From: a virus
Length of the DNA: 64,000 nucleotides
Virus record (IMG/VR): IMGVR_UViG_3300027976_000006
Span: 64,001 to 128,000 of that record
Strand: one strand, 5' to 3'
Every line of letters begins with the position of its first letter. Within the stretch, counting starts at the first letter, position 1. Positions 19,010 to 30,031 of the stretch are shown piece by piece. The notes beneath the pieces were generated by a model. It made no database searches, was not told the origin of the DNA, and saw only the letters and a list, made by a program, of their open reading frames with translations. Both the position numbers and the translations under genes were made by a program.

Positions 19010-20140
19010 ATGTCATTAGCAAAAGTAGCCAGTTATTACAGAATTAAAGTGGCTCGTCATTTGATTAATATCGTTTCGTTGCGGCAAGAGCTGGGTACTT
19101 ACAATGTAAACGGGCTGTTAAAAGCTGCGTCTGCGGGGCAGAGCAAAGAAGCTTGTTTGCGCTATGCGGGATTACACACGGCTATACTTTTTGAGCAGCG
19201 AGAGCTGGAGAAGCTCGGAGCAGTGGGCGGGTATAACTCGCAAATGCGAAAAGTGGCCGTTGGCAACTATGGCAGCATACCACCTGGAGGATTCAAAGAT
19301 TACCCGAAGCCAGCAACTCCAGCCCCTGATGCGATAAGAGCACAGGCAAGTAAGCCCGTCTCTAGTTATACACCGGATGCGATAAGAGCACAGGCAAGTA
19401 AGCCCGCACCTAGTTACACGCCTGGGCAAATTGACGATGGTGGTAGGGGTTTTGAGATGGACCGCCTAAATAAGACGGATACAGGCAATCGGCAACAAGC
19501 AGTACTTGACGCAAATCGGGCTGGTCGCCAAAACTTGCCCTCTGGTATGCTAGATCTTAATGCTAATATGCTGGGGAATCACAGCAAACTTCCAGACGCC
19601 CCAACCAGAGGTCAGCTTGCTGATGATGTCGCAGGGACAAGCACAGCAGCTCGGAGGGCAGCAATGGCACAAGCCGGTACAAATGTCGGGGGTGGCTTCC
19701 CTGTAGGCACAAATGGTAGAGTGGCGGGCACAAATGTCGGGGGCGGGCCGGCGGAAGGATTTGCAGCGGCGCAAGCGGCACAAGCGGTGGCAGCTGCCCC
19801 AGCTACATCCGTTCCTGCATCTGTGATTCCTAAGCCGGAGCAGGGCACTGCAAATGCAACGAGTGGATTAGGCTATGATCCGACAGGGTCCGGCAGCGCA
19901 GGAAGGTATTCCGAAACAGCAGACCCCGTAGAGGAGGCTTACACTAGGAGTCTAGGGGCATCGGGTTATGCGGGGCATGTCAGCGACACTGAAACACAAC
20001 CCGAAGCACAACCCGAAGCACAACCCGTGTCACAAGTGCAACAGGGGCGTGGTAGGCGCGGTGGGCGTGGTGGTCCAATACGCAATATGATAGGTAATGT
20101 GCAGCAAGGCCAAGGGCTATTTGGTAGGCGAGGCCGGTAA
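19010..20140 (+). CDS. low-complexity internal virion protein with KxA propeptide
   Basis: KVA/KAA/KLG/KVA in N-terminal ~85 aa; PDAIRAQASKP duplicated; Arg/Gly-rich C-terminus. Confidence 0.65.
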   Translation: MSLAKVASYYRIKVARHLINIVSLRQELGTYNVNGLLKAASAGQSKEACLRYAGLHTAILFEQRELEKLGAVGGYNSQMRKVAVGNYGSIPPGGFKDYPKPATPAPDAIRAQASKPVSSYTPDAIRAQASKPAPSYTPGQIDDGGRGFEMDRLNKTDTGNRQQAVLDANRAGRQNLPSGMLDLNANMLGNHSKLPDAPTRGQLADDVAGTSTAARRAAMAQAGTNVGGGFPVGTNGRVAGTNVGGGPAEGFAAAQAAQAVAAAPATSVPASVIPKPEQGTANATSGLGYDPTGSGSAGRYSETADPVEEAYTRSLGASGYAGHVSDTETQPEAQPEAQPVSQVQQGRGRRGGRGGPIRNMIGNVQQGQGLFGRRGR

Positions 20141-20182
20141 TTAAAATTGAACTTAGCTGATATTTTTATGTTGAGGTGAATT

Positions 20183-20845
20183 ATGTCGAAGTATGCAATG
20201 GAAAAACAAGCTTTTCACGCTAACCGCTTGTCTAGCTTAAACGCAGAAATAGCCCGTTACAACCCAGCCAGTTTGTTGAAGCAAGCGTCAACTTACCCAA
20301 CTACACATAACAAGCAGTTGTGTACTTATTACCTTGCATTAACTAAGCAGGCAGCCTTTGAGAAGAAAGCATTTCTAAAGGCAATTTTAAAAGCTTTGAT
20401 GAAACCAAAGATTAGTCTACTTCCTGCCGCTGGTCTACTGGGGGCATATAGCTACGGGCCAAGTGCAATCAAGGCGACTGGTAGTGCAATTGGTGGTGCT
20501 GCAGATGCTGCTGTGGAAGGAACACAAAATCTTCTACACAGAGCTGGAAGAGGATGGCAAGGGCTGTGGTCAGATCCGACGAGTGATATGTCAAGCAAAG
20601 GTATAAATAAAAAAGTAGAAGAAAGTCTTAAGCCTGTGACTAAACCTACCGGGATACAGCTAGCGCCAAAAACCCGTTGGGTGCAGGTAGACGATGACTC
20701 ATTAAGTCCGGAGCAGAGACGCAGATATTATACTGAGGGTGCCAACACTGGATTTGAAGATTATCAAATTAGCCCAGCAACACGTGGGCAAGTGCCTTAT
20801 AGAAGGCCTCCTACTTATCCTGGGTATTATAGTGGTAATCATTAG
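20183..20845 (+). CDS. internal virion protein with KxA propeptide and hydrophobic segment
   Basis: KYA, KQA x3, KKA; N-terminus resembles ORF 19010. Confidence 0.65.
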   Translation: MSKYAMEKQAFHANRLSSLNAEIARYNPASLLKQASTYPTTHNKQLCTYYLALTKQAAFEKKAFLKAILKALMKPKISLLPAAGLLGAYSYGPSAIKATGSAIGGAADAAVEGTQNLLHRAGRGWQGLWSDPTSDMSSKGINKKVEESLKPVTKPTGIQLAPKTRWVQVDDDSLSPEQRRRYYTEGANTGFEDYQISPATRGQVPYRRPPTYPGYYSGNH

Positions 20846-21079
20846 TTTTTTGTTAAAAATGTTGACAATTATTTAGCTTAACCAAATCACATCTTGCTTC
20901 ATTTGTGCGATTGTTATAGGCTCGTTTAAAGTCAAATAAGCTCTGTTTGCTAACTTTCACCAGCGTCGCACCGTCATGGAGGATTTGCGTATGTCGGTTA
21001 AGCTTAAGCAGAATATCCACATCCAAGTCATACCCCCTTGTTCCGTGCTTGGGTGACACCTAGCGTTTTGAGGTGTCTA

Positions 21080-21496
21080 ATGAAACTTTTTTGGGCTGGT
21101 TTATTCTTGTTCGCTGGCCTAGTCGTGTGGGGAATTTTTCCCGACCCATCCTCAAATGTATTTATACCCCCTGAGCCACCTTCGCAAATTGCGGAAATGG
21201 TATCACATCACCACGCAATATTTGAAGGGCCTCGCTCGGGCAAGTGGCCAACGGTTAGGCAGCGGTTTATTGCAGTGCACTCTCGTTGTGCGGCGTGTGG
21301 TAGCCCCCTTAACTTAAATGTCCATCATTTGATTAGTTTTCACGAACAACCAGAGTTGGAGTTAGATCCAGATAACTTAATTACTTTATGCCGCTTGCAC
21401 CATTTTTTGCTGGGGCATTCCAGTAACTGGTCAGACACTAACGAAAACTGCAAGGAAGCAGTTAAAGTTTATCGTCGTTTGCATCCGTGGAAATAG
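21080..21496 (+). CDS. HNH endonuclease with N-terminal hydrophobic segment
   Basis: CAACG..NVHHL..DPDNLITLCRLHH; GAGG RBS before ATG 21080. Confidence 0.8.
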   Translation: MKLFWAGLFLFAGLVVWGIFPDPSSNVFIPPEPPSQIAEMVSHHHAIFEGPRSGKWPTVRQRFIAVHSRCAACGSPLNLNVHHLISFHEQPELELDPDNLITLCRLHHFLLGHSSNWSDTNENCKEAVKVYRRLHPWK

Positions 21497-21521
21497 GCTG
21501 TTAATTACCAAGGAGGGTGAT

Positions 21522-21872
21522 ATGGCTAATAGAATAGATAAACGAAATACAAAGTTTCATGATGTTTTGCGAATGCTACGCAAAGAGTGTAAAGTAGCTA
21601 GACCTATAAAGGTAGTAAGTAAGGATTTAAACAAGGAAAAGTTATGTGGCTGCTGCATAGCCTATTTAGACAAGTATGGCGGGGTAAGTCGTTTCGTCAT
21701 TGAAGTTGATAACAATCTTGCTCCGGTTACCGCGATCGACACGCTTTTACACGAATGGGCGCATGCGTTAAACCAAGTGGCTAATGGAGTCACAGGTGAA
21801 CCACACAGTGGCAGCTGGGGTAAATGTTACGCACGTGTGTGGCGTTCTTATGTCACAAAAATAATTGATTAA
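21522..21872 (+). CDS. zincin metalloprotease-like protein (SprT/ImmA-like)
   Basis: LLHEWAHAL followed by PHSGSWG. Confidence 0.7.
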   Translation: MANRIDKRNTKFHDVLRMLRKECKVARPIKVVSKDLNKEKLCGCCIAYLDKYGGVSRFVIEVDNNLAPVTAIDTLLHEWAHALNQVANGVTGEPHSGSWGKCYARVWRSYVTKIID

Positions 21873-21877
21873 TTTAT

Positions 21878-21906
21878 TTGACTATGCCCTTTTAAATAGG
21901 TACAAA
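21878..21906 (+). promoter_or_regulatory. possible sigma70-type promoter
   Basis: TTGACT-17 bp-TACAAA upstream of ORF 21951. Confidence 0.35.
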
Positions 21907-21950
21907 TTATCTGCTTTAGGCTGCCTATGTACTAAATCCAAGGAGGGTAT

Positions 21951-22724
21951 ATGGCTTGGTACAATCGAGAAGACAAAGAAATTATTAATTTTATGGTTCT
22001 TGGAAATCAACACTCTGGGTATGGTTTATTACAATCTTCCTTAGCCGCGCATCCTGATATAGTATGCCACGGTGATTTACTTCACGACGACGAAAAGATT
22101 AGAAAAATTGAGCATTCCATGTACTTTGGAACGGCGGATAAGGTCACTGATCACTTTGATCCATCACATCTTAGTGTAGAACAATACTTTAATAACAAAA
22201 TTTTTGATAACATTTTTCACGGCGAAAAAGCCGTAGGTGTAAAGGTAAGCTACGATCATTTACGCCGCTACGATTTGTGGGAGTACATTGATCAGCGATG
22301 CCGCCAAGGTGATTTCTGTCTGGTGCATGTTGTCCGTAACCCGATTTCTTGCTATGTGGCCTGGAAACAGCAACACGTACTTAGCCGAGTTGAAAGCGGC
22401 AGCCGAGAACGATTGCCGGCTATTTGGGTGGACGCAGCAGAATTGACACAATTTGTACGGGAGCATGCGGCCACCGCAGCAAAAATAAATCGACTTTGTC
22501 CTGATCGCGCAATTATTCCTTACCACGAATTGATTTTAGATTTTCGCGGCGTGTTGGAAAAGTTGCTAGAATTCTTAGAATTGAAGTTTAGCTCAGTGTG
22601 TTTGCCTAACCAAAAGCGGGCACAGTGTAAGGATATACGCAGCCGGGTGACGAATTGGACAGATTTAAAAAATACAGTTCCTCGTGATGTTCTTGAATAT
22701 GCGGATAGCCCGACTTTATTTTAA
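21951..22724 (+). CDS. Stf0-like sulfotransferase-family protein, degenerate PAPS motifs
   Basis: FMVLGNQHSGYGLL..HPDIVCHGDLL, AVGVK, VHVVRNP, YHEL. Confidence 0.7.
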   Translation: MAWYNREDKEIINFMVLGNQHSGYGLLQSSLAAHPDIVCHGDLLHDDEKIRKIEHSMYFGTADKVTDHFDPSHLSVEQYFNNKIFDNIFHGEKAVGVKVSYDHLRRYDLWEYIDQRCRQGDFCLVHVVRNPISCYVAWKQQHVLSRVESGSRERLPAIWVDAAELTQFVREHAATAAKINRLCPDRAIIPYHELILDFRGVLEKLLEFLELKFSSVCLPNQKRAQCKDIRSRVTNWTDLKNTVPRDVLEYADSPTLF

Positions 22725-22735
22725 AAGGAGTAAGT

Positions 22736-23497
22736 GTGGCCGAGAACAATAAAGCAGAAAAACAAAGGGTGTGCATTGTTTGTATTGCCAAGGACGAGGA
22801 CAGAACCATACAAGAATGGGTGGATTACCACCTCAAATTAGGCTTTGATAAAATTTTTATTTACCAAAACGACTGGACTTGCCCCATTGAATGTGCCCAG
22901 CTTGTGAAACTGCGCGCGGATGGAAATGAGCGGCAGATGCCGGCGTACAATCATTGGCTTTCATCCGGATACCGAAACGATTTTGATTGGGTAGCAATTA
23001 TCGACTGTGACGAGTTTATTGTGTTGCACAAACACAAAACCATATCGGAATTTATTTCTGAATTTGATGTAACCAGTACGGCTGGCGTGTCCGCAAATTG
23101 GGTTATGTTCGGTAGCGGGGGCCAACAATTACCAACCCCAAACCCAGAAAGTCTTATTAAAAGATTTACATTCAGACAAAAAGACCCATATGCGGTTGTA
23201 AAGCCGATACTTAATTTAAAAATGAAATTCAGCATACCTAATCCACATTATCCAAGCCTACCCACCATTGATACTAATCACAGAAAATTTGTAGGGGCAT
23301 ACAACCCAGATGGTCCAATTGATATCATTCAGATAAATCATTACCAACATAAATCCAGACAAGAATGGATTGAAAGGATTCAGCGTGGGTCGGCTGACGG
23401 GCGTCCCAAGCAAATGGATAATTGGGACAAAGAAAGCCATAGTTATCACGATGTCGAAGATTTAAAAGCATTAAATTTCCTTTATGGGGGGCATTAA
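22736..23497 (+). CDS. glycosyltransferase (GT2_4/GT92-like)
   Basis: IAKDEDRTIQEWVDYH..GFD, IIDCDEF, NWVMFGS, INHY. Confidence 0.85.
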   Translation: MAENNKAEKQRVCIVCIAKDEDRTIQEWVDYHLKLGFDKIFIYQNDWTCPIECAQLVKLRADGNERQMPAYNHWLSSGYRNDFDWVAIIDCDEFIVLHKHKTISEFISEFDVTSTAGVSANWVMFGSGGQQLPTPNPESLIKRFTFRQKDPYAVVKPILNLKMKFSIPNPHYPSLPTIDTNHRKFVGAYNPDGPIDIIQINHYQHKSRQEWIERIQRGSADGRPKQMDNWDKESHSYHDVEDLKALNFLYGGH

Positions 23498-23499
23498 GC

Positions 23500-24153
23500 A
23501 TGATCAAGTTAGACCGAGCAACTATCTTGTACGGCGAAAAACAATGGAAGCAATATCAAAAGGATATGCTCCTTGTGTTAATGGAAGCTAATGCGGGTCA
23601 GAATATTACACTGCAGGTTCCCGTTCCAGAGTCATATCCATGCCTAGTTTATTTGCCGCATACGCCAACAGCTATTTCAGACACATTAACCATTAATTGC
23701 TGTTACATTTACACCGAGGAGCCAGAAAAACTGCTAGAGAAGTTAAAAACGGAGGGCACACTCGATCTTACCTCGCTTGCCCGTAAACTTAGATGTTACG
23801 GTTACGTAGCGCCTCAAGCTAGTTTAGATGCGTCCGACGAAGCCGACGAAGTTGTTTTTGATGATGACAATTATCAGCCAACTGAAGATTCTTTTGAAAG
23901 TGACGCTGCCGAGCTTCAAGATGAATTCAGGGATAAGCCGGCTGTCGCAAAATCTTATGTCCCCACATCGGCGGCTGTGCTACTGTTGTCCTTAGTTGTC
24001 GAGTTACGCAGCATAGGTGCTTTACGCCTAGACCACATGCTAGACACAGTAAAAGAAATAGAACAATGGATGACAGCCAATCAAGAAGAAAACTCGCAGC
24101 TTAATGCACTGGAATTATTAAAAAGGCTATGGGACGAACAGACTGATCGATAA
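23500..24153 (+). CDS. hypothetical acidic protein
   Basis: 217 aa ORF, coupled to previous gene. Confidence 0.65.
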   Translation: MIKLDRATILYGEKQWKQYQKDMLLVLMEANAGQNITLQVPVPESYPCLVYLPHTPTAISDTLTINCCYIYTEEPEKLLEKLKTEGTLDLTSLARKLRCYGYVAPQASLDASDEADEVVFDDDNYQPTEDSFESDAAELQDEFRDKPAVAKSYVPTSAAVLLLSLVVELRSIGALRLDHMLDTVKEIEQWMTANQEENSQLNALELLKRLWDEQTDR

Positions 24154-24193
24154 GATTATTGCTCAGCGCGGTATTCTACTGTATTTCCTACTC

Positions 24194-24223
24194 TTGTCGT
24201 TGCGACACCTATCCCGGTATAAT
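24194..24223 (+). promoter_or_regulatory. sigma70-type promoter for the downstream ncRNA
   Basis: TTGTCG-18 bp-TATAAT ending 6 nt before the RNA terminal stem. Confidence 0.5.
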
Positions 24224-24229
24224 CAGCTT

Positions 24230-24416
24230 AAGTGGCTTTATCGCAGGTGCCGATAGGTTAGGAGATGCAACACAGCTAGGATAGACGTGATTTGCATCGG
24301 GATAGCTGGGCGAGTGAAAAACAGCCAGCTGGTGGAGTTTCAGTCGCACCTTATGACTGTTACAGGCGGAACGCTTCCGCACCGGGCTTGAGGGAGGGGA
24401 TCTCAAGGGGTCACTT
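24230..24416 (+). ncRNA. candidate structured ncRNA (~190 nt) with kissing loops
   Basis: Terminal stem AAGTGGCTTT/GGGGTCACTT enclosing six hairpins; loops AGGTGC and GCACCT are complementary. Confidence 0.6.
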
Positions 24417-24434
24417 CACTATTTTTATGTAAGG

Positions 24435-24788
24435 ATGCCGCTAAGCATGACAAGTACGCAATATCAAGTTTTAACTAATGTACAAGAACGGCTAATGCAG
24501 CAGACAGCCTCAATTGATACTACCCTGGGGCATATGAGCCAAGATATTAATATTTTGTGTAAGTTGGTGCGCGACGGGAACGGACAGCCTTCCATTTTGC
24601 AGCGATTAACTCAAGCCGAAATAGTCCTTGCGGGGCAGATTAAATCACTGGAAGAAATTGGCCGGCATGCTAATTCTATAACGGCATCTCGCATGCTGAC
24701 ACACACCCAGTTAATAGTAGGATTATCAGGTATGATTCTTACTGTGCTGCTCTCCTCATTTTCGGTTTATGCCGCATTTATAAAATAA
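24435..24788 (+). CDS. coiled-coil protein with C-terminal TM helix (holin/XhlA-like)
   Basis: LVRDGNGQPSILQRL; hydrophobic C-terminus. Confidence 0.5.
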   Translation: MPLSMTSTQYQVLTNVQERLMQQTASIDTTLGHMSQDINILCKLVRDGNGQPSILQRLTQAEIVLAGQIKSLEEIGRHANSITASRMLTHTQLIVGLSGMILTVLLSSFSVYAAFIK

Positions 24789-24801
24789 GTTAGGAGTTTT
24801 T

Positions 24802-25371
24802 ATGAGTTTGCTTTTTACAGTGGACATTCCAGATTATAGACATTTGCTGTTGTACGATGTCGTAAGTTGTCCCGAGAAGCGAGCTGAAGTAAAAATGACT
24901 GGGTTGTTACAGGTTACTAGTTCTGGTTATCTAATTATTGGTGTGCCTACTGCCTTAGTTCGTGGAATTTTTGATGCTATGCACGAGCCTGGTATTTCTT
25001 TGCCCAATGCGGTAGACGAAGGAGCTTTGCGTGCCGGGATCGTGGTGATGACCCCTGCCGAGCTTGAGCAGGCAGGCGGTTCTGATTACATTAGCGAAAG
25101 AGGCAAGAACTTTACTTACTATCTTGGCGGGCTTAAAGAGACACAAGCCATAGGTTGGCCCGGTGTCTCCACTTGTTGGCACATGAAAATAAAGTCGCCA
25201 GATTTAGGTAAATTACGCCGAAGCTACGGGCTGCCCACTAAAGTCGAAGGAGACTCCGACTTTTCTATTGTGGTGGCGGTACGAAAAACCGGTGTACTGG
25301 CTGGCAATGCTGCGAGTAAAGTTATGAAGCAGAAGGATTCGCAGAAGCTTCCAAGTTGGACGCTGCCTTAA
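24802..25371 (+). CDS. 2H-phosphoesterase-fold protein lacking both catalytic His
   Basis: GYL..VP, AGIVVM (HxS position), SPDLGKLRRSYGLP, FSIVVA (HxT position). Confidence 0.5.
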   Translation: MSLLFTVDIPDYRHLLLYDVVSCPEKRAEVKMTGLLQVTSSGYLIIGVPTALVRGIFDAMHEPGISLPNAVDEGALRAGIVVMTPAELEQAGGSDYISERGKNFTYYLGGLKETQAIGWPGVSTCWHMKIKSPDLGKLRRSYGLPTKVEGDSDFSIVVAVRKTGVLAGNAASKVMKQKDSQKLPSWTLP

Positions 25372-25534
25372 GCTTATCTTGGATTAACTTGGCTATCTCG
25401 TGGCGGTGTACTACAATTTCTCGTGGAGCTTTTATCCCAATTTGAATTTTGTCCCCACGGATGCCGACAATGGTAATGGAGATGTTATCACTAATTTGAA
25501 TACTTTCGCCTTTTTTTCTACTTAACACTAGCAT
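25322..25534 (-). CDS. csrA: carbon storage regulator CsrA/RsmA
   Basis: MLVLSRKKGESIQI..IGIKAPREIVVHRHEI. Confidence 0.95.
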   Translation of the reverse strand: MLVLSRKKGESIQISDNISITIVGIRGDKIQIGIKAPREIVVHRHEIAKLIQDKLKAASNLEASANPSAS

Positions 25535-25619
25535 TTGAGGTATCCTTCCTTAGAACGGGAATGCCGAGAATTTTACTACATTACTTATTTAGCAAGAAGA
25601 AGTCAAGTAAGGAGTTGCC

Positions 25620-26057
25620 ATGGAAGCTTTTCTTCAGAGGTTGCGTACTGATGCAAACTTAGCTTACAAAGCGGCGGCTAGCCACAATGGTTGGTATATC
25701 GGCGACTCGCATATAAAAGGTAAAGGTATTTTTGCCTCCAAGGATTTTAATGAAGGTGCTCAGATTGGGCAAGGCGGTGCGGCGGGCGGTGAAGATGAAT
25801 TTGGGTCTAAAATCTGGAATTTAACGGAGTTGGCCCGTTATTGTAACCATCAGTGGAAATCGAACGTTGACATAAAGAAAAATAATGATCAGCTTGATTT
25901 AATCGCTAATAAAAAAATTAATAAAGATGAGGAAATTGTGGCGGATTATTCACAAATTTCTCGGGCGCTCGGAGCTAGATCCCGCATGCTGTGGCAGGGT
26001 AAAGATGTTCCTACTACAGATTTTTCGGACTATACTGAGAAAGACGCGCGTAATTAA
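25620..26057 (+). CDS. SET-domain protein methyltransferase
   Basis: SHIKGKGIFA, ARYCNH, INKDEEIVADY. Confidence 0.85.
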   Translation: MEAFLQRLRTDANLAYKAAASHNGWYIGDSHIKGKGIFASKDFNEGAQIGQGGAAGGEDEFGSKIWNLTELARYCNHQWKSNVDIKKNNDQLDLIANKKINKDEEIVADYSQISRALGARSRMLWQGKDVPTTDFSDYTEKDARN

Positions 26058-26104
26058 TAAGTAAACCTGTCTCGACAATAACAACATTTAACTAGGAGAT
26101 ATCC

Positions 26105-28384
26105 GTGCAAATCGCTTCATTTAAAAAGGATTCTACTTCACAAAAGCGTAATGGTCTAACAGTCAAAAAGCGAAACGGCAAAGTGGTAAATTTTGATCAA
26201 GCTCGCATTTATACCGCATTACATCGATGTTTAGTAAGTGAGTTAAAGTATGATGAGGCTGAGGCGGTGCGCATTAGCAAAATGGTTGGTGAGCAGGTAT
26301 ACAATATCGTGGGTAGCGACAATAAGATAGTTGGTGTCGAAGAGATACAAAATTTAGTTGAAACTCAATTGATGGCTAATGGGCTGTACCTTGTGGCCAA
26401 ACAATATATTCTCTTTAGAGAAGTAAAGAGACAGCAACGAGAAAACGCACCATTACCCGAGGCAGTTGTTGCCGCATTTCAAGAGAATGACACTTATTTT
26501 AGTAATGAATTACAGAAGTTTCAAGCTTTGGACAAGTTTGCACGCTTTGTGCCAGAGCTAGGGCGGAGGGAGACTTGGCCTGAAACAGTAGACCGAGTTA
26601 ATCAATTTTTTCAAGCACATTGTAAGCGTGAAAATTATACTGTAACTGACGAAGAGTGGGAAAACCTTAAACAAGGTCTTTTGCGTCTAGAGTCTGCACC
26701 TTCCATGCGCTGCGTGCAGATGGCTGGACCTGCGCTAGAGAGATGCCATGTCGGTGTGTATAATTGCTCGTTCCAAATATTACAAGATACAACGGACATG
26801 GCTGAAGAACTGTATGTCTTAATGCAGGGCACAGGTGTTGGTTTTTCAGTGGAAGAAGAATTTAGCGTAGAAAAGTTTCCGCGCGTTAAGCGACAAAAGA
26901 AGCACAGTGAGCTTCTTACCTATGTGATCGAGGACAGCACTGAAGGTTGGTGTGATGCCTACAAGGCAGGGCTAGATGCGTGGTGGGCCGGTGAAGATAT
27001 TCATTTTGATTACAGCCGGATACGGGCGAAAGGCACGCCACTTAAGATTAAGGGGGGGAGGGCGTCGGGTCCTGGGCCATTAAAGGATTTACTGGAGTTT
27101 GCCAAGGCAAGAATTACGGCAAGGCAGGGGCGTTATCTCTCTAGTCTAGACCTACATGACATTAATTGTTTTGCCCATAGGATTGTGCGGATGGGAGGGG
27201 TGCGCAGAGCGAGTGGCATCTCGTTGTCAGATTTACAAGACCGAGAAATGCGTGATTGCAAGCAGCAAGGTTTTTGGACCACCAACGAGCAGCGCAATCA
27301 GGCTAACAATTCAGCCGTATATAACGAAAAACCGGATCAGCTGGTGTGGATGGAGGAGTGGTTATCTATAGCTAACTCGGGGACAGGAGAACGGGGTATT
27401 TTCAATAGGGGCGGGTTAAAGAATCAATTCCCTAAACGGCGTAAGCATCAGGGCCATTTTTTCGGGACCAACCCCTGCGGAGAGATTATTTTAAGGCACA
27501 AACAATTTTGTAACTTGTCTATTGCCGTTATTCGCACTACGGATTCGTACGAAGACATCGCACGAAAAGTAGAATTAGCTACAATTTGGGGGACATTGCA
27601 AGCCACTATGACTCGCTTTAATTACATAGGTGAAGAATGGAAAAAGAATAGCGAGGAAGAACGATTACTAGGAGTAGATTTGCTTGGTTTTCTTGATCAT
27701 CCGCTATTTCAGGATAACGCAAAAGCTGGTGTAATCCTGGCTAAATTGTTATGTTTAGTCAATGAAGTTAACGCCAAATGGTCGGCTCGTTTGGGTATTA
27801 ACATCTCTGCTGCTACTACATGTATTAAGCCGTCAGGGGATAGTAGCGTGTTCTTTAACACAGCAGCCGGGTTTAAAGGGCATCACGGAAAGTGGTACGT
27901 TAGACGCGTTAGAGCAAACACCACTAACCCTGTGGCACAGATGCTAAAAGATGAAGGCGTACCTTGCCTCGACGATTACGATGGCAGCGGTTTGGTATTG
28001 GAGTTTCCTATGCAGGCACCCGAAGGTGGTGTGTTGTTAGAAACGCAAACAGTTTTGAGCCAGCTAGAGAAATGGAAAACGTTTAAGCTGCATTGGACCG
28101 AGCACAATCCTAGTGTCACGATATATATTCGTCCTTCCGAGTGGCTGGACGCGGGCAAATGGGTTTACGATAACTGGGATATTGTTGGAGGTTTAAGCTT
28201 CCTGCCTTACGACGGGGGTATATACCATTTAGCCCCGTATGAAGCAATTTCGGAGGAGGAGTACGATCGCAGGGTTGCGGCTATGCCTACGATCAACTGG
28301 GCTAAGCTGATTCGTTACGAGAAATCAGATATGACTGATTTGCACCAGCAGACGGCCTGCACGGGTGGGGCTTGCGCTGTTTAA
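26105..28384 (+). CDS. nrdJ: class II (AdoCbl) ribonucleotide reductase with N-terminal ATP cone
   Basis: VKKRNG ATP cone, RRETWPETVDR, GTGVGFS, GGVRR, TNPCGEI, IKPSG, C-terminal CTGGAC. Confidence 0.92.
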   Translation: MQIASFKKDSTSQKRNGLTVKKRNGKVVNFDQARIYTALHRCLVSELKYDEAEAVRISKMVGEQVYNIVGSDNKIVGVEEIQNLVETQLMANGLYLVAKQYILFREVKRQQRENAPLPEAVVAAFQENDTYFSNELQKFQALDKFARFVPELGRRETWPETVDRVNQFFQAHCKRENYTVTDEEWENLKQGLLRLESAPSMRCVQMAGPALERCHVGVYNCSFQILQDTTDMAEELYVLMQGTGVGFSVEEEFSVEKFPRVKRQKKHSELLTYVIEDSTEGWCDAYKAGLDAWWAGEDIHFDYSRIRAKGTPLKIKGGRASGPGPLKDLLEFAKARITARQGRYLSSLDLHDINCFAHRIVRMGGVRRASGISLSDLQDREMRDCKQQGFWTTNEQRNQANNSAVYNEKPDQLVWMEEWLSIANSGTGERGIFNRGGLKNQFPKRRKHQGHFFGTNPCGEIILRHKQFCNLSIAVIRTTDSYEDIARKVELATIWGTLQATMTRFNYIGEEWKKNSEEERLLGVDLLGFLDHPLFQDNAKAGVILAKLLCLVNEVNAKWSARLGINISAATTCIKPSGDSSVFFNTAAGFKGHHGKWYVRRVRANTTNPVAQMLKDEGVPCLDDYDGSGLVLEFPMQAPEGGVLLETQTVLSQLEKWKTFKLHWTEHNPSVTIYIRPSEWLDAGKWVYDNWDIVGGLSFLPYDGGIYHLAPYEAISEEEYDRRVAAMPTINWAKLIRYEKSDMTDLHQQTACTGGACAV

Positions 28385-28474
28385 GCTCAGCTTAGTCTAG
28401 CTATGCGTGGCATAAATCAAGTAAGATAGTCAGGTGTATGCCGTTTTGGAATATGACTTTGCACCCGTAACTTA

Positions 28475-29590
28475 ATGGATGAGACTGTGGTACACGCTAG
28501 CGAGCTACCTAACTTAAATGTCGAACAAACTCTAGACTTAGGGCTGTACGCTGATTTTCCGGGCACTATTGACTATCTGGCAGAAAAATGTGCATCGCCC
28601 GCTAGGTACATTCGACGGATAATCTCGCCGCTGTATACAAAAACGGATATAGGTATTTATTGGAATCCCGCAGTTGAAAAAGCCGGAATGTATGTTCGAC
28701 CGGTATTTAATCAAGAAGAGTTTGGCTGGTGTTTGCAACTTTTGACGGAAAAGCTTGGGGCGGAGCATGTGCAAACGGAGCCACTTACCCCTTATGCCTT
28801 GCAAGATTGGTGGGTAAAGGTGGCTTATTCTCCGACGCTTAGACGTTTGGGTGAATTAGCTCAATTTTTTCCCAGTAAAGATATTCCTGGTTTTGGTGGT
28901 CGTCCTATTGCAACTATGGTTGCTAGCGGTCTTTTGGGAGCAGGGCTTGGATATGGAGCTGGTTATTTAGGTGAGAAGATATTACCAAATAGTTTGCAAA
29001 CAAAAGGTACATTGCGTAAACGGCTGGCTTTGATGGGCGGGGCAGGTGGTGCTTTAATGGGGACAATACCGGGTTTAGTCAATTGGCACGATGGCCGAGA
29101 TTTTAATGACCCTGCGCTTTGGCAAGGTGGGCCAGAAGATGGGTTTGAATCTGATATCCCTACTTCTGCCAAATATAAAGAAGCCGTTGCACATTTTATT
29201 GAAAAACAAGCTGAAGCGGAGTTCGGCACTATAGGTGGTCCGTCTTTTACTGAAATGCCACTAATACGAACAAATGAGTTGGGCCAAGTGCTGTGGGGAA
29301 CAAATGCTAGTCCTCAAACTACCGCCATGACTATGGGAGCGGTTTACGGGGCGGGGCAAATGTCTGATCCTAATGCGAGCCCAGGTATAGTAACACCACA
29401 CCAAGTTGGATTGTTTGGGATGGCGATGGGGGCGGCAGGTGGCGGGATTAAAGGCTATATTACAGGGCGTACAATCGGGTATGGTCTAGGTCTATTGACT
29501 GGAATGCCCGCAGGAACACAGAATACATTAGGGCAAACCGGGGCAACCCTAGGTGTGATTAACAGTTTAGTGCCTCGACTTTTTAACTAA
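28475..29590 (+). CDS. glycine-zipper membrane-like virion protein
   Basis: GLLGAGLGYGAG, GGAGGALMG; KVA and KQA sites; Cys only upstream of KVA. Confidence 0.65.
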   Translation: MDETVVHASELPNLNVEQTLDLGLYADFPGTIDYLAEKCASPARYIRRIISPLYTKTDIGIYWNPAVEKAGMYVRPVFNQEEFGWCLQLLTEKLGAEHVQTEPLTPYALQDWWVKVAYSPTLRRLGELAQFFPSKDIPGFGGRPIATMVASGLLGAGLGYGAGYLGEKILPNSLQTKGTLRKRLALMGGAGGALMGTIPGLVNWHDGRDFNDPALWQGGPEDGFESDIPTSAKYKEAVAHFIEKQAEAEFGTIGGPSFTEMPLIRTNELGQVLWGTNASPQTTAMTMGAVYGAGQMSDPNASPGIVTPHQVGLFGMAMGAAGGGIKGYITGRTIGYGLGLLTGMPAGTQNTLGQTGATLGVINSLVPRLFN

Positions 29591-29602
29591 GGAGATAGTA
29601 TT

Positions 29603-30031
29603 ATGTCCGTACAAGATCAACTAGACCAAGCTGTGCTTGCACTAACGACGCATTACAAGGAATACACAGCAGATGGAAAATTAACTTACAAAGAAGTGCT
29701 TTCGTTGCTATGCAACGGGGCTGCTACCCTTATTCGAGTAGTGGAGATATTTGGGGGAGGTAGCCGTGAAGACAACAAAAAGTTAGTGTTAGGCGGGCTT
29801 AGCACATTTTACGATAATGTAATTGCCCCAATAGACATTGTTGGCATCCCGAATATCATTGAGCCTGCGGTAGACGCGTCCATAAAATCGCTATTACTTG
29901 TTACGGTGGAGGGGGCTGCTGATTCATTATTCAATGTATTTGAAAAGATGGGTTGGTTGCACGCAGCTACACCACAAGCTCTGCGGTTAATGGGCGCAAC
30001 CGCTAAAGCGCAACCTGTTATGCTTTTTTAA
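29603..30031 (+). CDS. hypothetical protein
   Basis: 142 aa, AAGGAG RBS. Confidence 0.7.
   Translation: MSVQDQLDQAVLALTTHYKEYTADGKLTYKEVLSLLCNGAATLIRVVEIFGGGSREDNKKLVLGGLSTFYDNVIAPIDIVGIPNIIEPAVDASIKSLLLVTVEGAADSLFNVFEKMGWLHAATPQALRLMGATAKAQPVMLF

What the first reader, a model, noticed from the sequence alone, without database searches (positions are those of the whole stretch)
24194..24416. Promoter-driven ~190-nt RNA with kissing loops and seven GGA motifs near csrA
Seen: TTGTCG-18-TATAAT, then a terminal stem (24230/24407) enclosing hairpins TATCG/CGATA, GATGCAA/TTGCATC, AGCTGG/CCAGCT, CAGTCG/TGACTG, GCGGAA/TTCCGC and CTTGAG/CTCAAG. Loop AGGTGC (24245) is complementary to loop GCACCT (24346). 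GGA occurs seven times, some in loops. Inference: a novel compact tertiary RNA, or a CsrB/RsmZ-like sponge partnering the phage CsrA about 0.9 kb away (the ANGGA context is only partial).
Basis: partly seen in the sequence, partly recalled or inferred. Interest (0 to 1): 0.7.

Follow-up and report, generated by a model that had tools for sequence, protein, structure and literature searches.

The report
New pseudoknotted phage leader RNA
The stretch encodes a real, about 185-base RNA with seven helices and a loop-to-loop pseudoknot, from an undescribed family in large uncultured phages; it always opens the mRNA for a small membrane protein and a 2H-phosphoesterase-like protein, so it is most likely a control leader rather than a CsrB-like sponge.

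Summary

Comparative data show a genuine RNA. I collected 35 homologous copies from uncultured phage contigs. In a MAFFT-only alignment 91% of cells pair, against 36-49% when partners are slid. In the 23-sequence alignment 55 of 56 pairs show double changes. The kissing loop is kept in 23 of 23 with eight different sequence pairs. No Rfam 15 family matches.

A sigma-70-like -10 element lies 5-12 nt before P1 in 28 of 35 copies. The RNA ends 10-50 nt before the next start codon. The gene order is RNA, then a small membrane or PAS protein (sometimes absent), then a 2H-fold protein.

The sponge reading is not supported:
- GGA is not enriched (7 against 5.5±1.6 in shuffles).
- Only one ANGGA lies inside the RNA.
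- A complete 205-kb phage has the RNA but no csrA.

A CsrA-consensus site does sit at the ribosome-binding site just downstream wherever csrA is adjacent.

Best reading: a new cis-acting, riboswitch-like leader, with CsrA as a second input. What the folded domain senses is unknown.

This scan found the same family earlier on other genomes, with similar conclusions.

The parts
24194..24223 (+). Sigma-70-like promoter: -35 TTGTCG (24194-24199), 18-nt spacer, -10 TATAAT (24218-24223). The predicted start is about 24230, at the foot of P1.
   Evidence: 10 of 12 matches. A -10-like hexamer ends 5-12 nt before P1 in 28 of 35 homologs; in the 19 closest it is TATAAT or TATACT with an 18-nt spacer.
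24231..24415 (+). The structured RNA domain (about 185 nt): a multi-helix junction closed by P1, holding P2-P7.
   Evidence: Model R1 scores 197 bits here. There is one copy per genome. Covariation.
24231..24238 (+). P1 5' strand. It pairs with 24408-24415.
   Evidence: 8 of 8 pairs show double changes; 97.8% of cells are paired.
24239..24255 (+). P2 hairpin (24239-24243 with 24251-24255), stacked directly on P1. Loop 24244-24250 is CAGGUGC.
   Evidence: 5 of 5 pairs covary; 100% paired.
24245..24250 (+). Kissing-loop (pseudoknot) strand AGGUGC. It pairs with GCACCU at 24346-24351.
   Evidence: A 5-7 bp helix is kept in 23 of 23 homologs through 8 different sequence pairs. 5 of 5 pairs covary although the model did not include them.
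24256..24263 (+). J2/3 GGUUAGGA. GGUUAG is 91-100% conserved.
24264..24298 (+). P3, a two-part hairpin: outer 24264-24269 with 24293-24298, inner 24272-24277 with 24283-24288. Its tip shows GGA (24279-24281).
   Evidence: 11 of 11 pairs covary. The loop GGA is 91-96% conserved.
24305..24329 (+). P4 hairpin with the conserved loop GUGAAAAAC.
   Evidence: 5 of 5 pairs covary; 100% paired.
24331..24335 (+). J4/5 GGnGG. All four G are invariant.
24337..24363 (+). P5 hairpin. Its loop (24346-24354) supplies the second kissing strand.
   Evidence: 9 of 9 pairs covary.
24366..24380 (+). P6, a hairpin of variable length (15 to about 60 nt among homologs).
   Evidence: 4 of 4 basal pairs covary. The length differences are visible.
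24387..24407 (+). P7 hairpin, capped by a nearly invariant G-U pair (24393 with 24401). Loop 24394-24400 holds the conserved AGGGGA.
   Evidence: 6 of 7 pairs covary. The G-U is present in 22 of 23, which also fixes the + strand as the RNA strand.
24408..24415 (+). P1 3' strand.
24431..24449 (+). Translation-initiation region of the first gene: UAAGGAUG (GGA at 24433-24435) and the conserved start codon at 24447-24449. This is the candidate CsrA site.
   Evidence: A-N-GGA is present here in 16 of 17 loci with an adjacent csrA and in 0 of 5 without one. CA-N-GGA-N-G is present in 12 of 17 against 0 of 5. The hairpin stem CUUCUC/GAGAAG of relatives is replaced by CUUG/CAAG in L003.
24447..24788 (+). 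First gene of the transcript: a 113-aa coiled-coil protein with a C-terminal membrane helix. An in-frame ATG at 24435 is probably not the start.
   Evidence: No Pfam or PHROG match. The nearest named Atlas cluster is XhlA, a lead only.
24802..25371 (+). Second gene: a 189-aa protein with a 2H-phosphoesterase fold that lacks both catalytic histidines. It is the constant gene partner of the RNA.
25322..25534 (-). Phage csrA, convergent with the 2H-like gene and overlapping its 3' end by 50 nt.
   Evidence: Pfam CsrA E 2e-22.

Best explanation
The stretch is the promoter-proximal, highly structured 5' leader of a phage mRNA, and it belongs to a new RNA family. Transcription starts about 7 nt after the TATAAT box, so the first bases of the transcript form P1.

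P1 closes a six-way junction (P2-P7). A kissing interaction between the P2 and P5 loops locks the junction, and its unpaired core is made almost only of invariant G-rich strands: GGUUAG, GGnGG, GG and AGGGGA.

About 30 nt after P1 comes the start codon of a small membrane-protein gene, followed by a 2H-phosphoesterase-like gene.

I infer that the folded domain acts in cis, like a riboswitch aptamer or a protein-binding operator. In this reading it senses a ligand or protein not yet identified, and so sets translation or stability of this operon.

In phages with an adjacent csrA, as here, CsrA probably adds a second input. It would bind the A-N-GGA site over the ribosome-binding site (24431-24437), possibly bridged to the GGA in the P7 loop 35 nt upstream.

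Shown: the fold, the pseudoknot, the conserved promoter position, the fixed place in front of the operon, and the pattern of CsrA-type sites. Inferred: transcription itself, action in cis, CsrA binding, and any ligand.
For: Structure:
- On a MAFFT-only alignment of 19 sequences, 91.2% of cells pair against 36-49% when partners are slid, and 37 of 56 pairs show double changes.
- On 23 sequences that include distant ones (39-91 bits), 94.8% of cells pair and 55 of 56 pairs show double changes.
- The pseudoknot was not part of the model, yet it is kept in 23 of 23 sequences with 8 different sequence pairs.
- A nearly invariant G-U pair in P7 and many U-G pairs in P1 fit only the + strand.

Promoter: a -10-like hexamer ends 5-12 nt before P1 in 28 of 35 homologs (for the window).

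Position:
- The RNA model ends 14-48 nt before the apparent start codon in the loci where that start is clear. No terminator is found in between.
- The gene order is RNA, then a small membrane or PAS protein (absent in L018, L029, L043, L046), then the 2H-like gene. This order holds from 46% to 71% GC.
- There is a single copy per genome.
- The RNA was found next to every 2H-like homolog of at least 41% identity for which DNA could be read, in one of them only by eye and weak partial hits.

CsrA layer:
- An A-N-GGA site lies at the ribosome-binding site in 16 of 17 loci with adjacent csrA and in 0 of 5 without. The full CA-N-GGA-N-G is present in 12 of 17 against 0 of 5.
- The extra clade L065-L076, whose csrA lies far away in the genome, also lacks GGA there.
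- The SELEX consensus RUACARGGAUGU and dual-site bridging over 10-63 nt are described in PMC7652899.
Against: - There is no transcript data, and all homologs come from uncultured phages, so transcription and the 3' end are inferred.
- I found no conserved alternative pairing (expression platform) that links the domain to the ribosome-binding site.
- No ligand can be named.
- Synteny is conserved across one broad phage lineage, so the fixed position may partly reflect shared descent.
- The loci are related, so the counts for the CsrA-site correlation are not independent events.
- In the window the site is UAAGGAUG, not the full CA-N-GGA-N-G, and the local hairpin is weak (-4.1 kcal/mol, z +0.38).
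- The GGA in the P3 loop is kept even in the phage without csrA. CsrA from the phage or the host could therefore also bind the RNA body.
Confidence: 0.55

Rival explanations
1. Stand-alone RNA that works with the 2H-fold protein encoded behind it, as substrate, scaffold, decoy or partner in an RNA-protein particle. The downstream genes would only be co-transcribed by read-through.
For: - The 2H-like gene is the one constant neighbour, while the gene between it and the RNA varies or is absent.
- 2H enzymes act on RNA ends and on nucleotide 2',3'-cyclic or 2'-5' bonds (PMC9503650; PMC7824862).
- The window clade lost both catalytic histidines yet stays 58-89% identical across phages, which suits a binding role.
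- A U-rich run follows P1 in the AT-rich members.
Against: - No terminator-like site was found.
- The U-run is absent in GC-rich members.
- The start codon always follows within tens of bases.
- The most distant 2H homologs (37-38% identity) have no RNA.
Confidence: 0.17
2. CsrB/RsmZ-like sponge: a free small RNA that soaks up phage or host CsrA through its GGA motifs.
For: - csrA lies 0.9 kb away, and most related phages carry one or two csrA genes.
- GGA in the P3 hairpin loop is 91-96% conserved and reads CAUGGAUG or CAGGGAUG in clade L065-L076.
- The P7 loop holds a conserved GGGGA.
Against: - The GGA count equals chance: 7 against 5.5 +/- 1.6 in the window, and below the shuffle mean in some members.
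- ANGGA occurs 0-3 times per RNA, and once in the window.
- Most conserved G lie in junctions of a compact fold, not in repeated hairpins.
- There is no terminator.
- A complete 204.8-kb phage has the RNA but no csrA.
- A kissing-loop core has no counterpart in sponge RNAs (my knowledge of CsrB and RsmZ).
Confidence: 0.08
3. Cis-acting RNA that modifies the transcribing polymerase (processive antitermination, as with the put RNAs of phage HK022 or EAR of Bacillus), or a self-processing ribozyme at the 5' end of the transcript.
For: - It lies directly after a promoter and in front of a long run of same-strand genes that must pass through the convergent csrA.
- The neighbouring 2H enzymes handle 2',3'-cyclic phosphate ends such as ribozymes produce.
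Against: - There is no similarity to any Rfam ribozyme or antiterminator family.
- It is much larger than put or EAR (my knowledge).
- Nothing in the sequence points to a cleavage site.
Confidence: 0.08
4. Not a functional RNA: a chance set of hairpins in an intergenic spacer, or a small protein-coding region.
For: The single-sequence folding energy is ordinary (z -0.67). Short ORFs overlap the region.
Against: - Compensatory changes occur in 55 of 56 pairs.
- P3 and P6 vary in length by numbers of bases that are not multiples of three.
- The element is conserved from 46 to 71% GC.
Confidence: 0.01

Closest known systems
E. coli moaA leader: Moco riboswitch aptamer that is also bound by CsrA (PMC7652899; Regulski 2008, PMC2408646)
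   Same: Both are structured, covariation-supported 5' leader domains closed by P1 just upstream of the ribosome-binding site. In both, CsrA-type GGA sites lie in or next to the domain, which suggests two inputs on one leader.
   Different: There is no sequence or structural match to the Moco model or any other Rfam model. The architecture differs (seven helices plus a kissing loop). The ligand is unknown. The setting is a phage rather than a cell. Here the best CsrA site is outside the domain.
CsrA/RsmE-repressed mRNA leaders (glgC, cstA, pgaA, hcnA)
   Same: An A-N-GGA site overlaps the ribosome-binding site, often in a small hairpin loop. A second GGA lies 35 nt upstream, within the 10-63 nt bridging range.
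   Different: Those leaders have no large conserved tertiary domain. Here the domain is kept even in a phage without csrA.
CsrB / RsmZ / RsmY sponge RNAs
   Same: All are promoter-driven RNAs with several GGA, some in hairpin loops, encoded in a genome that has csrA.
   Different: GGA is not enriched and ANGGA is nearly absent. The fold is one compact pseudoknotted junction rather than repeated hairpins. There is no terminator, and a gene follows at once.
Large junction-type riboswitch aptamers with loop-loop contacts (lysine L2-L3, cobalamin L5-L13 kissing loop; from my knowledge)
   Same: Size (about 180-200 nt), a multi-helix junction closed by P1, a kissing loop that organises the fold, invariant junction bases, and a position in a 5' UTR.
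   Different: No match to RF00168, RF00174 or related models. The core is G-rich in a way not seen in those classes. No metabolic gene context points to a ligand.
Ornate phage-linked RNAs of unknown function (ROOL RF03087, GOLLD RF01998)
   Same: All are complex, well-conserved folds in phage DNA with no known function.
   Different: Those are 500-800 nt stand-alone RNAs. This one is about 185 nt and is tied to the 5' end of an mRNA. No Rfam hit.

Membership tests
Any Rfam 15 family (4227 models) | Score at or above the family's gathering threshold | tested here: not met
   There are 0 hits in the whole window. Only three chance-level hits (E 4.6-9.5) appear in 23900-24700 with permissive filters. 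There are 0 relevant hits in 8 homologous loci.
CsrB/RsmZ-type CsrA sponge | Many GGA motifs, mostly as ANGGA in the loops of repeated hairpins, in excess over composition | tested here: not met
   GGA count is 7 against 5.5 +/- 1.6 in shuffles. There is 1 ANGGA in the window RNA. Only the P3 and P7 loops carry GGA in a hairpin loop.
CsrB/RsmZ-type CsrA sponge | Independent transcription unit ending in a terminator | tested here: not met
   No terminator-like site lies between 24415 and the start codon at 24447. A gene follows within tens of bases in all homologs.
CsrB/RsmZ-type CsrA sponge | Occurs together with CsrA | tested here: inconclusive
   9 of 10 phage records searched have csrA. The complete 204.8-kb record G001 has the RNA and no csrA. 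Host CsrA cannot be assessed.
CsrB/RsmZ-type CsrA sponge | Binds several CsrA dimers | not testable with these tools
   Needs gel shift or ITC with purified protein.
CsrA-repressed mRNA leader | GGA site overlapping the Shine-Dalgarno region, ideally A(N)GGA in a hairpin loop, plus a second site 10-63 nt away | tested here: met
   In the window, UAAGGAUG lies at 24430-24437, 10 nt before AUG 24447. The P7-loop GGA (24398-24400) is 35 nt upstream. Across loci the site is present in 16 of 17 with adjacent csrA and in 0 of 5 without. The rules come from PMC7652899. This is a sequence-level test only.
CsrA-repressed mRNA leader | CsrA binding changes translation | not testable with these tools
   Needs toeprinting or reporter assays.
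Riboswitch (as a kind) | Conserved aptamer fold supported by covariation, with invariant unpaired core bases | tested here: met
Riboswitch (as a kind) | Located in the 5' UTR of the regulated gene, in the same orientation, in all members | tested here: met
Riboswitch (as a kind) | Expression platform with conserved alternative pairing | tested here: inconclusive
   No terminator was found. A small hairpin at the ribosome-binding site exists in many members. I found no conserved pairing that competes with P1.
Riboswitch (as a kind) | Binds a small molecule directly | not testable with these tools
   Needs in-line probing, ITC or a structure.
2H phosphoesterase superfamily (for the neighbouring 189-aa protein) | 2H fold | tested here: met
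   Distant homologs pass the Pfam PF22547 cut-off (41-44 bits against 27). The window protein itself scores 17.9 bits. With the AF2 model (pLDDT 76.5), the top 25 VIA-align matches are all 2H proteins (Z 3.8-7.1), best Acb1 7t26 at Z 7.1, rmsd 3.8 and 109 aligned residues; unrelated folds score Z 3.1 or less. The Z values are middling.
2H phosphoesterase superfamily (for the neighbouring 189-aa protein) | Two catalytic H-x-T/S motifs | tested here: not met
   The window clade has RAGIVVM and FSIVVA where the distant clade has NAHISVM and FHITVA. It is a likely inactive derivative.

The most novel reading that the evidence does not exclude
The domain is a new riboswitch class that senses a nucleotide-derived signal handled by the 2H-fold protein it precedes. 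Candidates are a cyclic di- or oligonucleotide from host anti-phage signalling, a 2',3'-cyclic nucleotide, or an ADP-ribose cyclic phosphate.

In that case the phage would switch on an Acb1-like degrading enzyme when the host alarm is raised. In the histidine-less clade of this window the protein would instead bind and sequester the signal.

The four invariant GG doublets of the junction might then build an unusual G-rich core, possibly a G-quartet, that binds the ligand.
Probability: 0.1. Interest if true: 0.95.

Novelty: new variant of a known kind. Interest (0 to 1): 0.68.

Why it matters
This is a well-supported, complex RNA fold with no counterpart in Rfam. It has seven helices, a covarying kissing loop and a core of invariant G-rich strands. 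It recurs in many large uncultured aquatic phages.

Orphan RNAs of this size and conservation have often turned out to be riboswitches, ribozymes or parts of RNA-protein machines.

Two things make it a concrete system for study:
- It is tightly linked to a 2H-phosphoesterase-like gene whose best structural match is the anti-CBASS nuclease Acb1.
- A phage CsrA site is layered over the ribosome-binding site.

Together these offer a way to ask how big phages time or condition expression of a possible RNA-repair or counter-defence module. They also offer a way to ask what phage-encoded CsrA proteins actually regulate, a question with almost no experimental answer so far.

Tried and rejected
- **Rfam:** the gathering scan of the window, a permissive scan of 23900-24700 and a scan of 8 homologous loci found nothing relevant.
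- **DNA search of cultured phages:** blastn of the element and megablast of 20000-30000 gave only chance 23-30-nt matches, or none.
- **Protein search of cultured phages:** tblastn of a 2H-SAK homolog against 50,697 cultured-phage records found no match. No cultured host system was found.
- **Upstream gene as anchor:** a search with the upstream 217-aa protein found no relatives.
- **First pattern scan:** it returned three chance hits (L009, L010, L012), which I discarded after reading them. L031 from the metagenome scan is a tRNA by chance.
- **Second covariance model:** All searches therefore used R1.
- **First AlphaFold model of the 189-aa protein:** with 11 sequences it was too poor to use (pLDDT 58).
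- **Searches with the 2H-like protein:** Foldseek against PDB gave only E >= 0.1. The sequence-profile search of PDB gave nothing meaningful.
- **Anti-Shine-Dalgarno mimicry:** I considered whether the kissing loop or the GGnGG strand mimics Shine-Dalgarno/anti-Shine-Dalgarno pairing. I rejected it because the loop sequences and the middle base vary freely among homologs.
- **P1 competitor:** I looked for a conserved pairing between the P1 5' strand and the start-codon region. One exists in the window (GCUUAAGUGGC with GCCGCUAAGC) but not in relatives, so I did not use it.
- **IMG/VR catalogue of 8,495 candidate RNAs (PMC10690425):** its supplements are not held, so I could not search it. Its motifs are 29-151 nt long, so the whole 185-nt fold is not described there as such. 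A fragment of it could still be listed.

Full report
**1. What is in the sequence**

The element fills the gap between a 217-aa ORF that ends at 24153 and an ORF that starts at 24435/24447. The consensus scan finds TTGTCG-18-TATAAT at 24194-24223, the best promoter-like site in the surrounding 2.2 kb. It finds no terminator-like site between the element and the next gene.

On its own the sequence is not remarkable:
- The minimum free energy of 24226-24430 is -63.1 kcal/mol against -60.4 +/- 4.0 for shuffles (z -0.67).
- Seven GGA is within the range of dinucleotide shuffles (5.5 +/- 1.6).
- No Rfam 15 family matches at the curated thresholds anywhere in the window. A permissive scan gives only three hits at E 4.6-9.5.

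**2. Relatives**

The window belongs to a 157-kb IMG/VR virus record. I gathered relatives in five ways:
- Searching with the downstream 113-aa protein gave five IMG/VR contigs. All carry the same element just upstream.
- A DNA pattern from its most conserved strands found 20 true metagenome copies. It also found one contig filed as a Gemmataceae MAG, which is about 90% identical to this phage at the protein level.
- The second downstream protein (189 aa) has more than 150 clusters of relatives in public metagenomes.
- I fetched contigs for nine of the more distant relatives; DNA was available for eight. Covariance model R1 found the RNA at 39-91 bits in seven of them. The eighth, at 78% GC, gave only weak partial hits and I recognised the RNA by eye.
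- A further IMG/VR scan with a broad alignment of this protein added a clade of about 200-kb phages with the RNA (26-54 bits). It also added a more distant clade (37-38% identity) that has tightly packed genes and no RNA.

In all I read 35 copies. Each genome searched holds one copy.

**3. The fold is real**

- RNAalifold on an unguided MAFFT alignment of 19 copies recovers P1, P2, P4, P5 and P7, with double changes in 20 of 33 pairs.
- Counting my full seven-helix structure plus the pseudoknot on that same MAFFT alignment gives 91.2% paired cells. Sliding the 3' partner by 1-3 columns gives 36-49%. Of 56 pairs, 37 show double changes. None of 500 shuffles reaches the observed covariation score.
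- On the 23-sequence alignment that includes the distant members, 94.8% of cells pair and 55 of 56 pairs show double changes. That alignment was fitted to the model, so it leans towards the nested helices.
- The pseudoknot was not in the model, yet it is 99% paired with double changes in all five pairs.
- Read sequence by sequence, the P2 and P5 loops can form 5-7 consecutive pairs in 23 of 23 copies. They do so through eight different pairs of sequences: AGGUGC/GCACCU, AGGUGU/ACACCU, GGCGC/GCGCC, AGACGC/GCGUCU, AGAGCGU/ACGCUUU, AGGUAC/GUACCU, GAGCGC/GCGCUC and GGGCAC/GUGCCC.
- A G-U pair at the top of P7 is present in 22 of 23 copies, and P1 holds many U-G pairs. These would be mismatches on the other strand, so the RNA is read from the + strand, in line with the promoter.
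- P3 and P6 vary in length by amounts that are not multiples of three, which excludes a coding explanation.

**4. Anatomy**

- P1 (24231-24238 with 24408-24415) stacks directly on P2.
- The junction strands and two loops hold nearly all the invariant unpaired bases, and almost all of these are G:
  - GGUUAG (24256-24261)
  - GGA at the tip of P3 (24279-24281)
  - GGnGG (24331-24335)
  - GG (24384-24385)
  - AGGGGA in the P7 loop (24395-24400)
- Four invariant GG doublets thus meet at the central junction. I note this as unexplained. A G-quartet core is one untested possibility.

**5. Context**

A -10-like hexamer ends 5-12 nt before P1 in 28 of 35 copies. In the 19 closest copies it is TATAAT or TATACT with an 18-nt spacer. 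The transcript should therefore begin at the foot of P1.

The RNA model ends 14-48 nt before the apparent start codon of the next gene in the loci where that start is clear. The order is RNA, then a small membrane or PAS-domain protein, then the 189-aa protein. After that come a convergent csrA and/or a SET-domain gene. The middle gene is absent in L018, L029, L043 and L046, so the 189-aa protein is the constant partner.

**6. The 189-aa protein**

- Distant members pass the Pfam cut-off for 2H-SAK, the 2H phosphoesterase domain of RNA-repair 'Swiss army knife' proteins (41-44 bits against 27). The window protein scores only 17.9 bits.
- An AlphaFold model with 53 sequences (pLDDT 76.5) gives 25 top structural matches that are all 2H enzymes. 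The best is the phage anti-CBASS nuclease Acb1 (7t26, Z 7.1, rmsd 3.8, 109 residues). Unrelated folds follow at Z 3.1 or less. These Z values are middling, so I claim only the fold.
- The distant clade has both H-x-S/T motifs (NAHISVM, FHITVA). The window clade has RAGIVVM and FSIVVA. The window protein is therefore probably not an enzyme, yet it remains 58-89% identical among phages.

**7. CsrA**

The sponge model fails on several counts:
- GGA is not enriched.
- ANGGA occurs once in the window RNA and 0-3 times in the others.
- The conserved G's sit in a compact junction rather than in repeated hairpins.
- No terminator separates the RNA from the next gene.
- The complete, terminally repeated 204.8-kb phage that holds L006 has the RNA but no csrA.

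CsrA is nevertheless common in this lineage: 9 of 10 records searched have it, some twice.

The region between the RNA and the start codon shows a clear pattern. In 16 of 17 loci with an adjacent csrA it holds A-N-GGA, and in 12 of 17 the fuller CA-N-GGA-N-G. This is often the loop of a short hairpin (CUUCUC/GAGAAG, changed to CUUG/CAAG in L003). In the five loci without an adjacent csrA it holds neither: two show a plain GAGG, one AGGAGG, and two were not examined in detail.

The clade whose csrA lies far away also lacks GGA there. These motifs match the SELEX consensus RUACARGGAUGU and the known preference for GGA in hairpin loops (PMC7652899).

In the window the site is UAAGGAUG (24430-24437). 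It lies 10 nt before AUG 24447 and 35 nt after the GGA of the P7 loop, within the 10-63 nt range over which one CsrA dimer can bridge two sites. The loci are related, so these counts are not independent. The window's own hairpin is weak.

**8. Reading**

The most economical account is a cis-acting leader. A conserved promoter fires into a large, rigid, pseudoknotted domain whose closing helix ends a few bases before the ribosome-binding site of the first gene. Where csrA is adjacent, that site carries a CsrA operator.

The domain itself does not depend on csrA. It has the hallmarks of an aptamer or a protein-binding operator: covarying helices around an invariant unpaired core, closed by P1. 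The closest precedent for two inputs on one leader is the E. coli moaA leader, where a Moco aptamer is also bound by CsrA.

What the domain senses is unknown. I could not find a conserved alternative pairing, so the step from fold to regulation is inferred.

The rivals I cannot exclude are:
- a free RNA that partners the 2H-like protein;
- a structured CsrA-binding RNA that uses the P3 and P7 loops;
- a polymerase-modifying or self-processing RNA.

**9. Novelty**

- There is no Rfam family and no relative in cultured phages.
- The published IMG/VR catalogue of candidate RNAs holds only motifs of 29-151 nt and could not be searched.
- Earlier follow-ups of this scan reached the same family on other genomes (e1-5811147, e1-5815373) and also read it as a leader with a CsrA input.

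- the distant, GC-rich and active-enzyme clades;
- the covarying pseudoknot across eight sequence pairs;
- the loss of the catalytic histidines in the window clade;
- the structural match to Acb1;
- the csrA-free complete phage;
- the clade of 2H homologs without the RNA.

Noticed in passing
window 24802-25371 (+): The 189-aa protein has a 2H-phosphoesterase fold; its best structural match is the anti-CBASS nuclease Acb1 (Z 7.1). The window clade has lost both catalytic H-x-S/T motifs, yet the protein stays highly conserved. It may be a pseudoenzyme or a binding protein.
   Followed up: partly
window 25322-25371: The 2H-like gene and the convergent csrA overlap by 50 nt at their 3' ends, so the two mRNAs are complementary there. 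The same convergent, often overlapping layout recurs in distant relatives (L048, L049, L050).
   Followed up: no
G000:C1:10776-10928 (+), outside the window: The phage carries a second, more divergent csrA gene (46 bits). Relatives G002 and G003 also have two.
   Followed up: no
L073:1780-1851 (+): In the clade of about 200-kb phages, a tRNA gene (69 bits) sits between the small membrane-protein gene and a 528-aa protein whose N-terminal 2H domain keeps both catalytic motifs.
   Followed up: no
window 24256-24261, 24331-24335, 24384-24385, 24395-24400: Nearly all invariant unpaired bases of the RNA are G. Four GG doublets meet at the central junction, and there is a GGGG loop. This might be a G-quartet-type core; it was not tested.
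   Followed up: no
window 25620-26057 (+): A SET-domain protein follows csrA. In some metagenome relatives the 2H-like and SET proteins are fused into one protein of about 340 aa (P0083, P0096, P0098).
   Followed up: no
window 24447-24788 (+): The 113-aa coiled-coil protein with a C-terminal membrane helix has no Pfam or PHROG match. Its nearest named look-alike cluster is XhlA, a phage lysis-cassette membrane protein (score 0.92, a lead only). In other clades a PAS-domain protein or a multi-pass membrane protein takes this place.
   Followed up: partly
window 21038-23497 (+): Upstream there is a conserved run of genes: HNH endonuclease, SprT-like protease, sulfotransferase and a GT2/GT92 glycosyltransferase. 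The GT92-like gene matched only in the closest relative (L036).
   Followed up: no
L036 (JBDNHI010000047.1, 79 kb): A contig filed as a Gemmataceae (Planctomycetota) MAG is about 90% identical at the protein level to this phage across the whole locus. It is either a mis-binned phage contig or a hint to the host.
   Followed up: no
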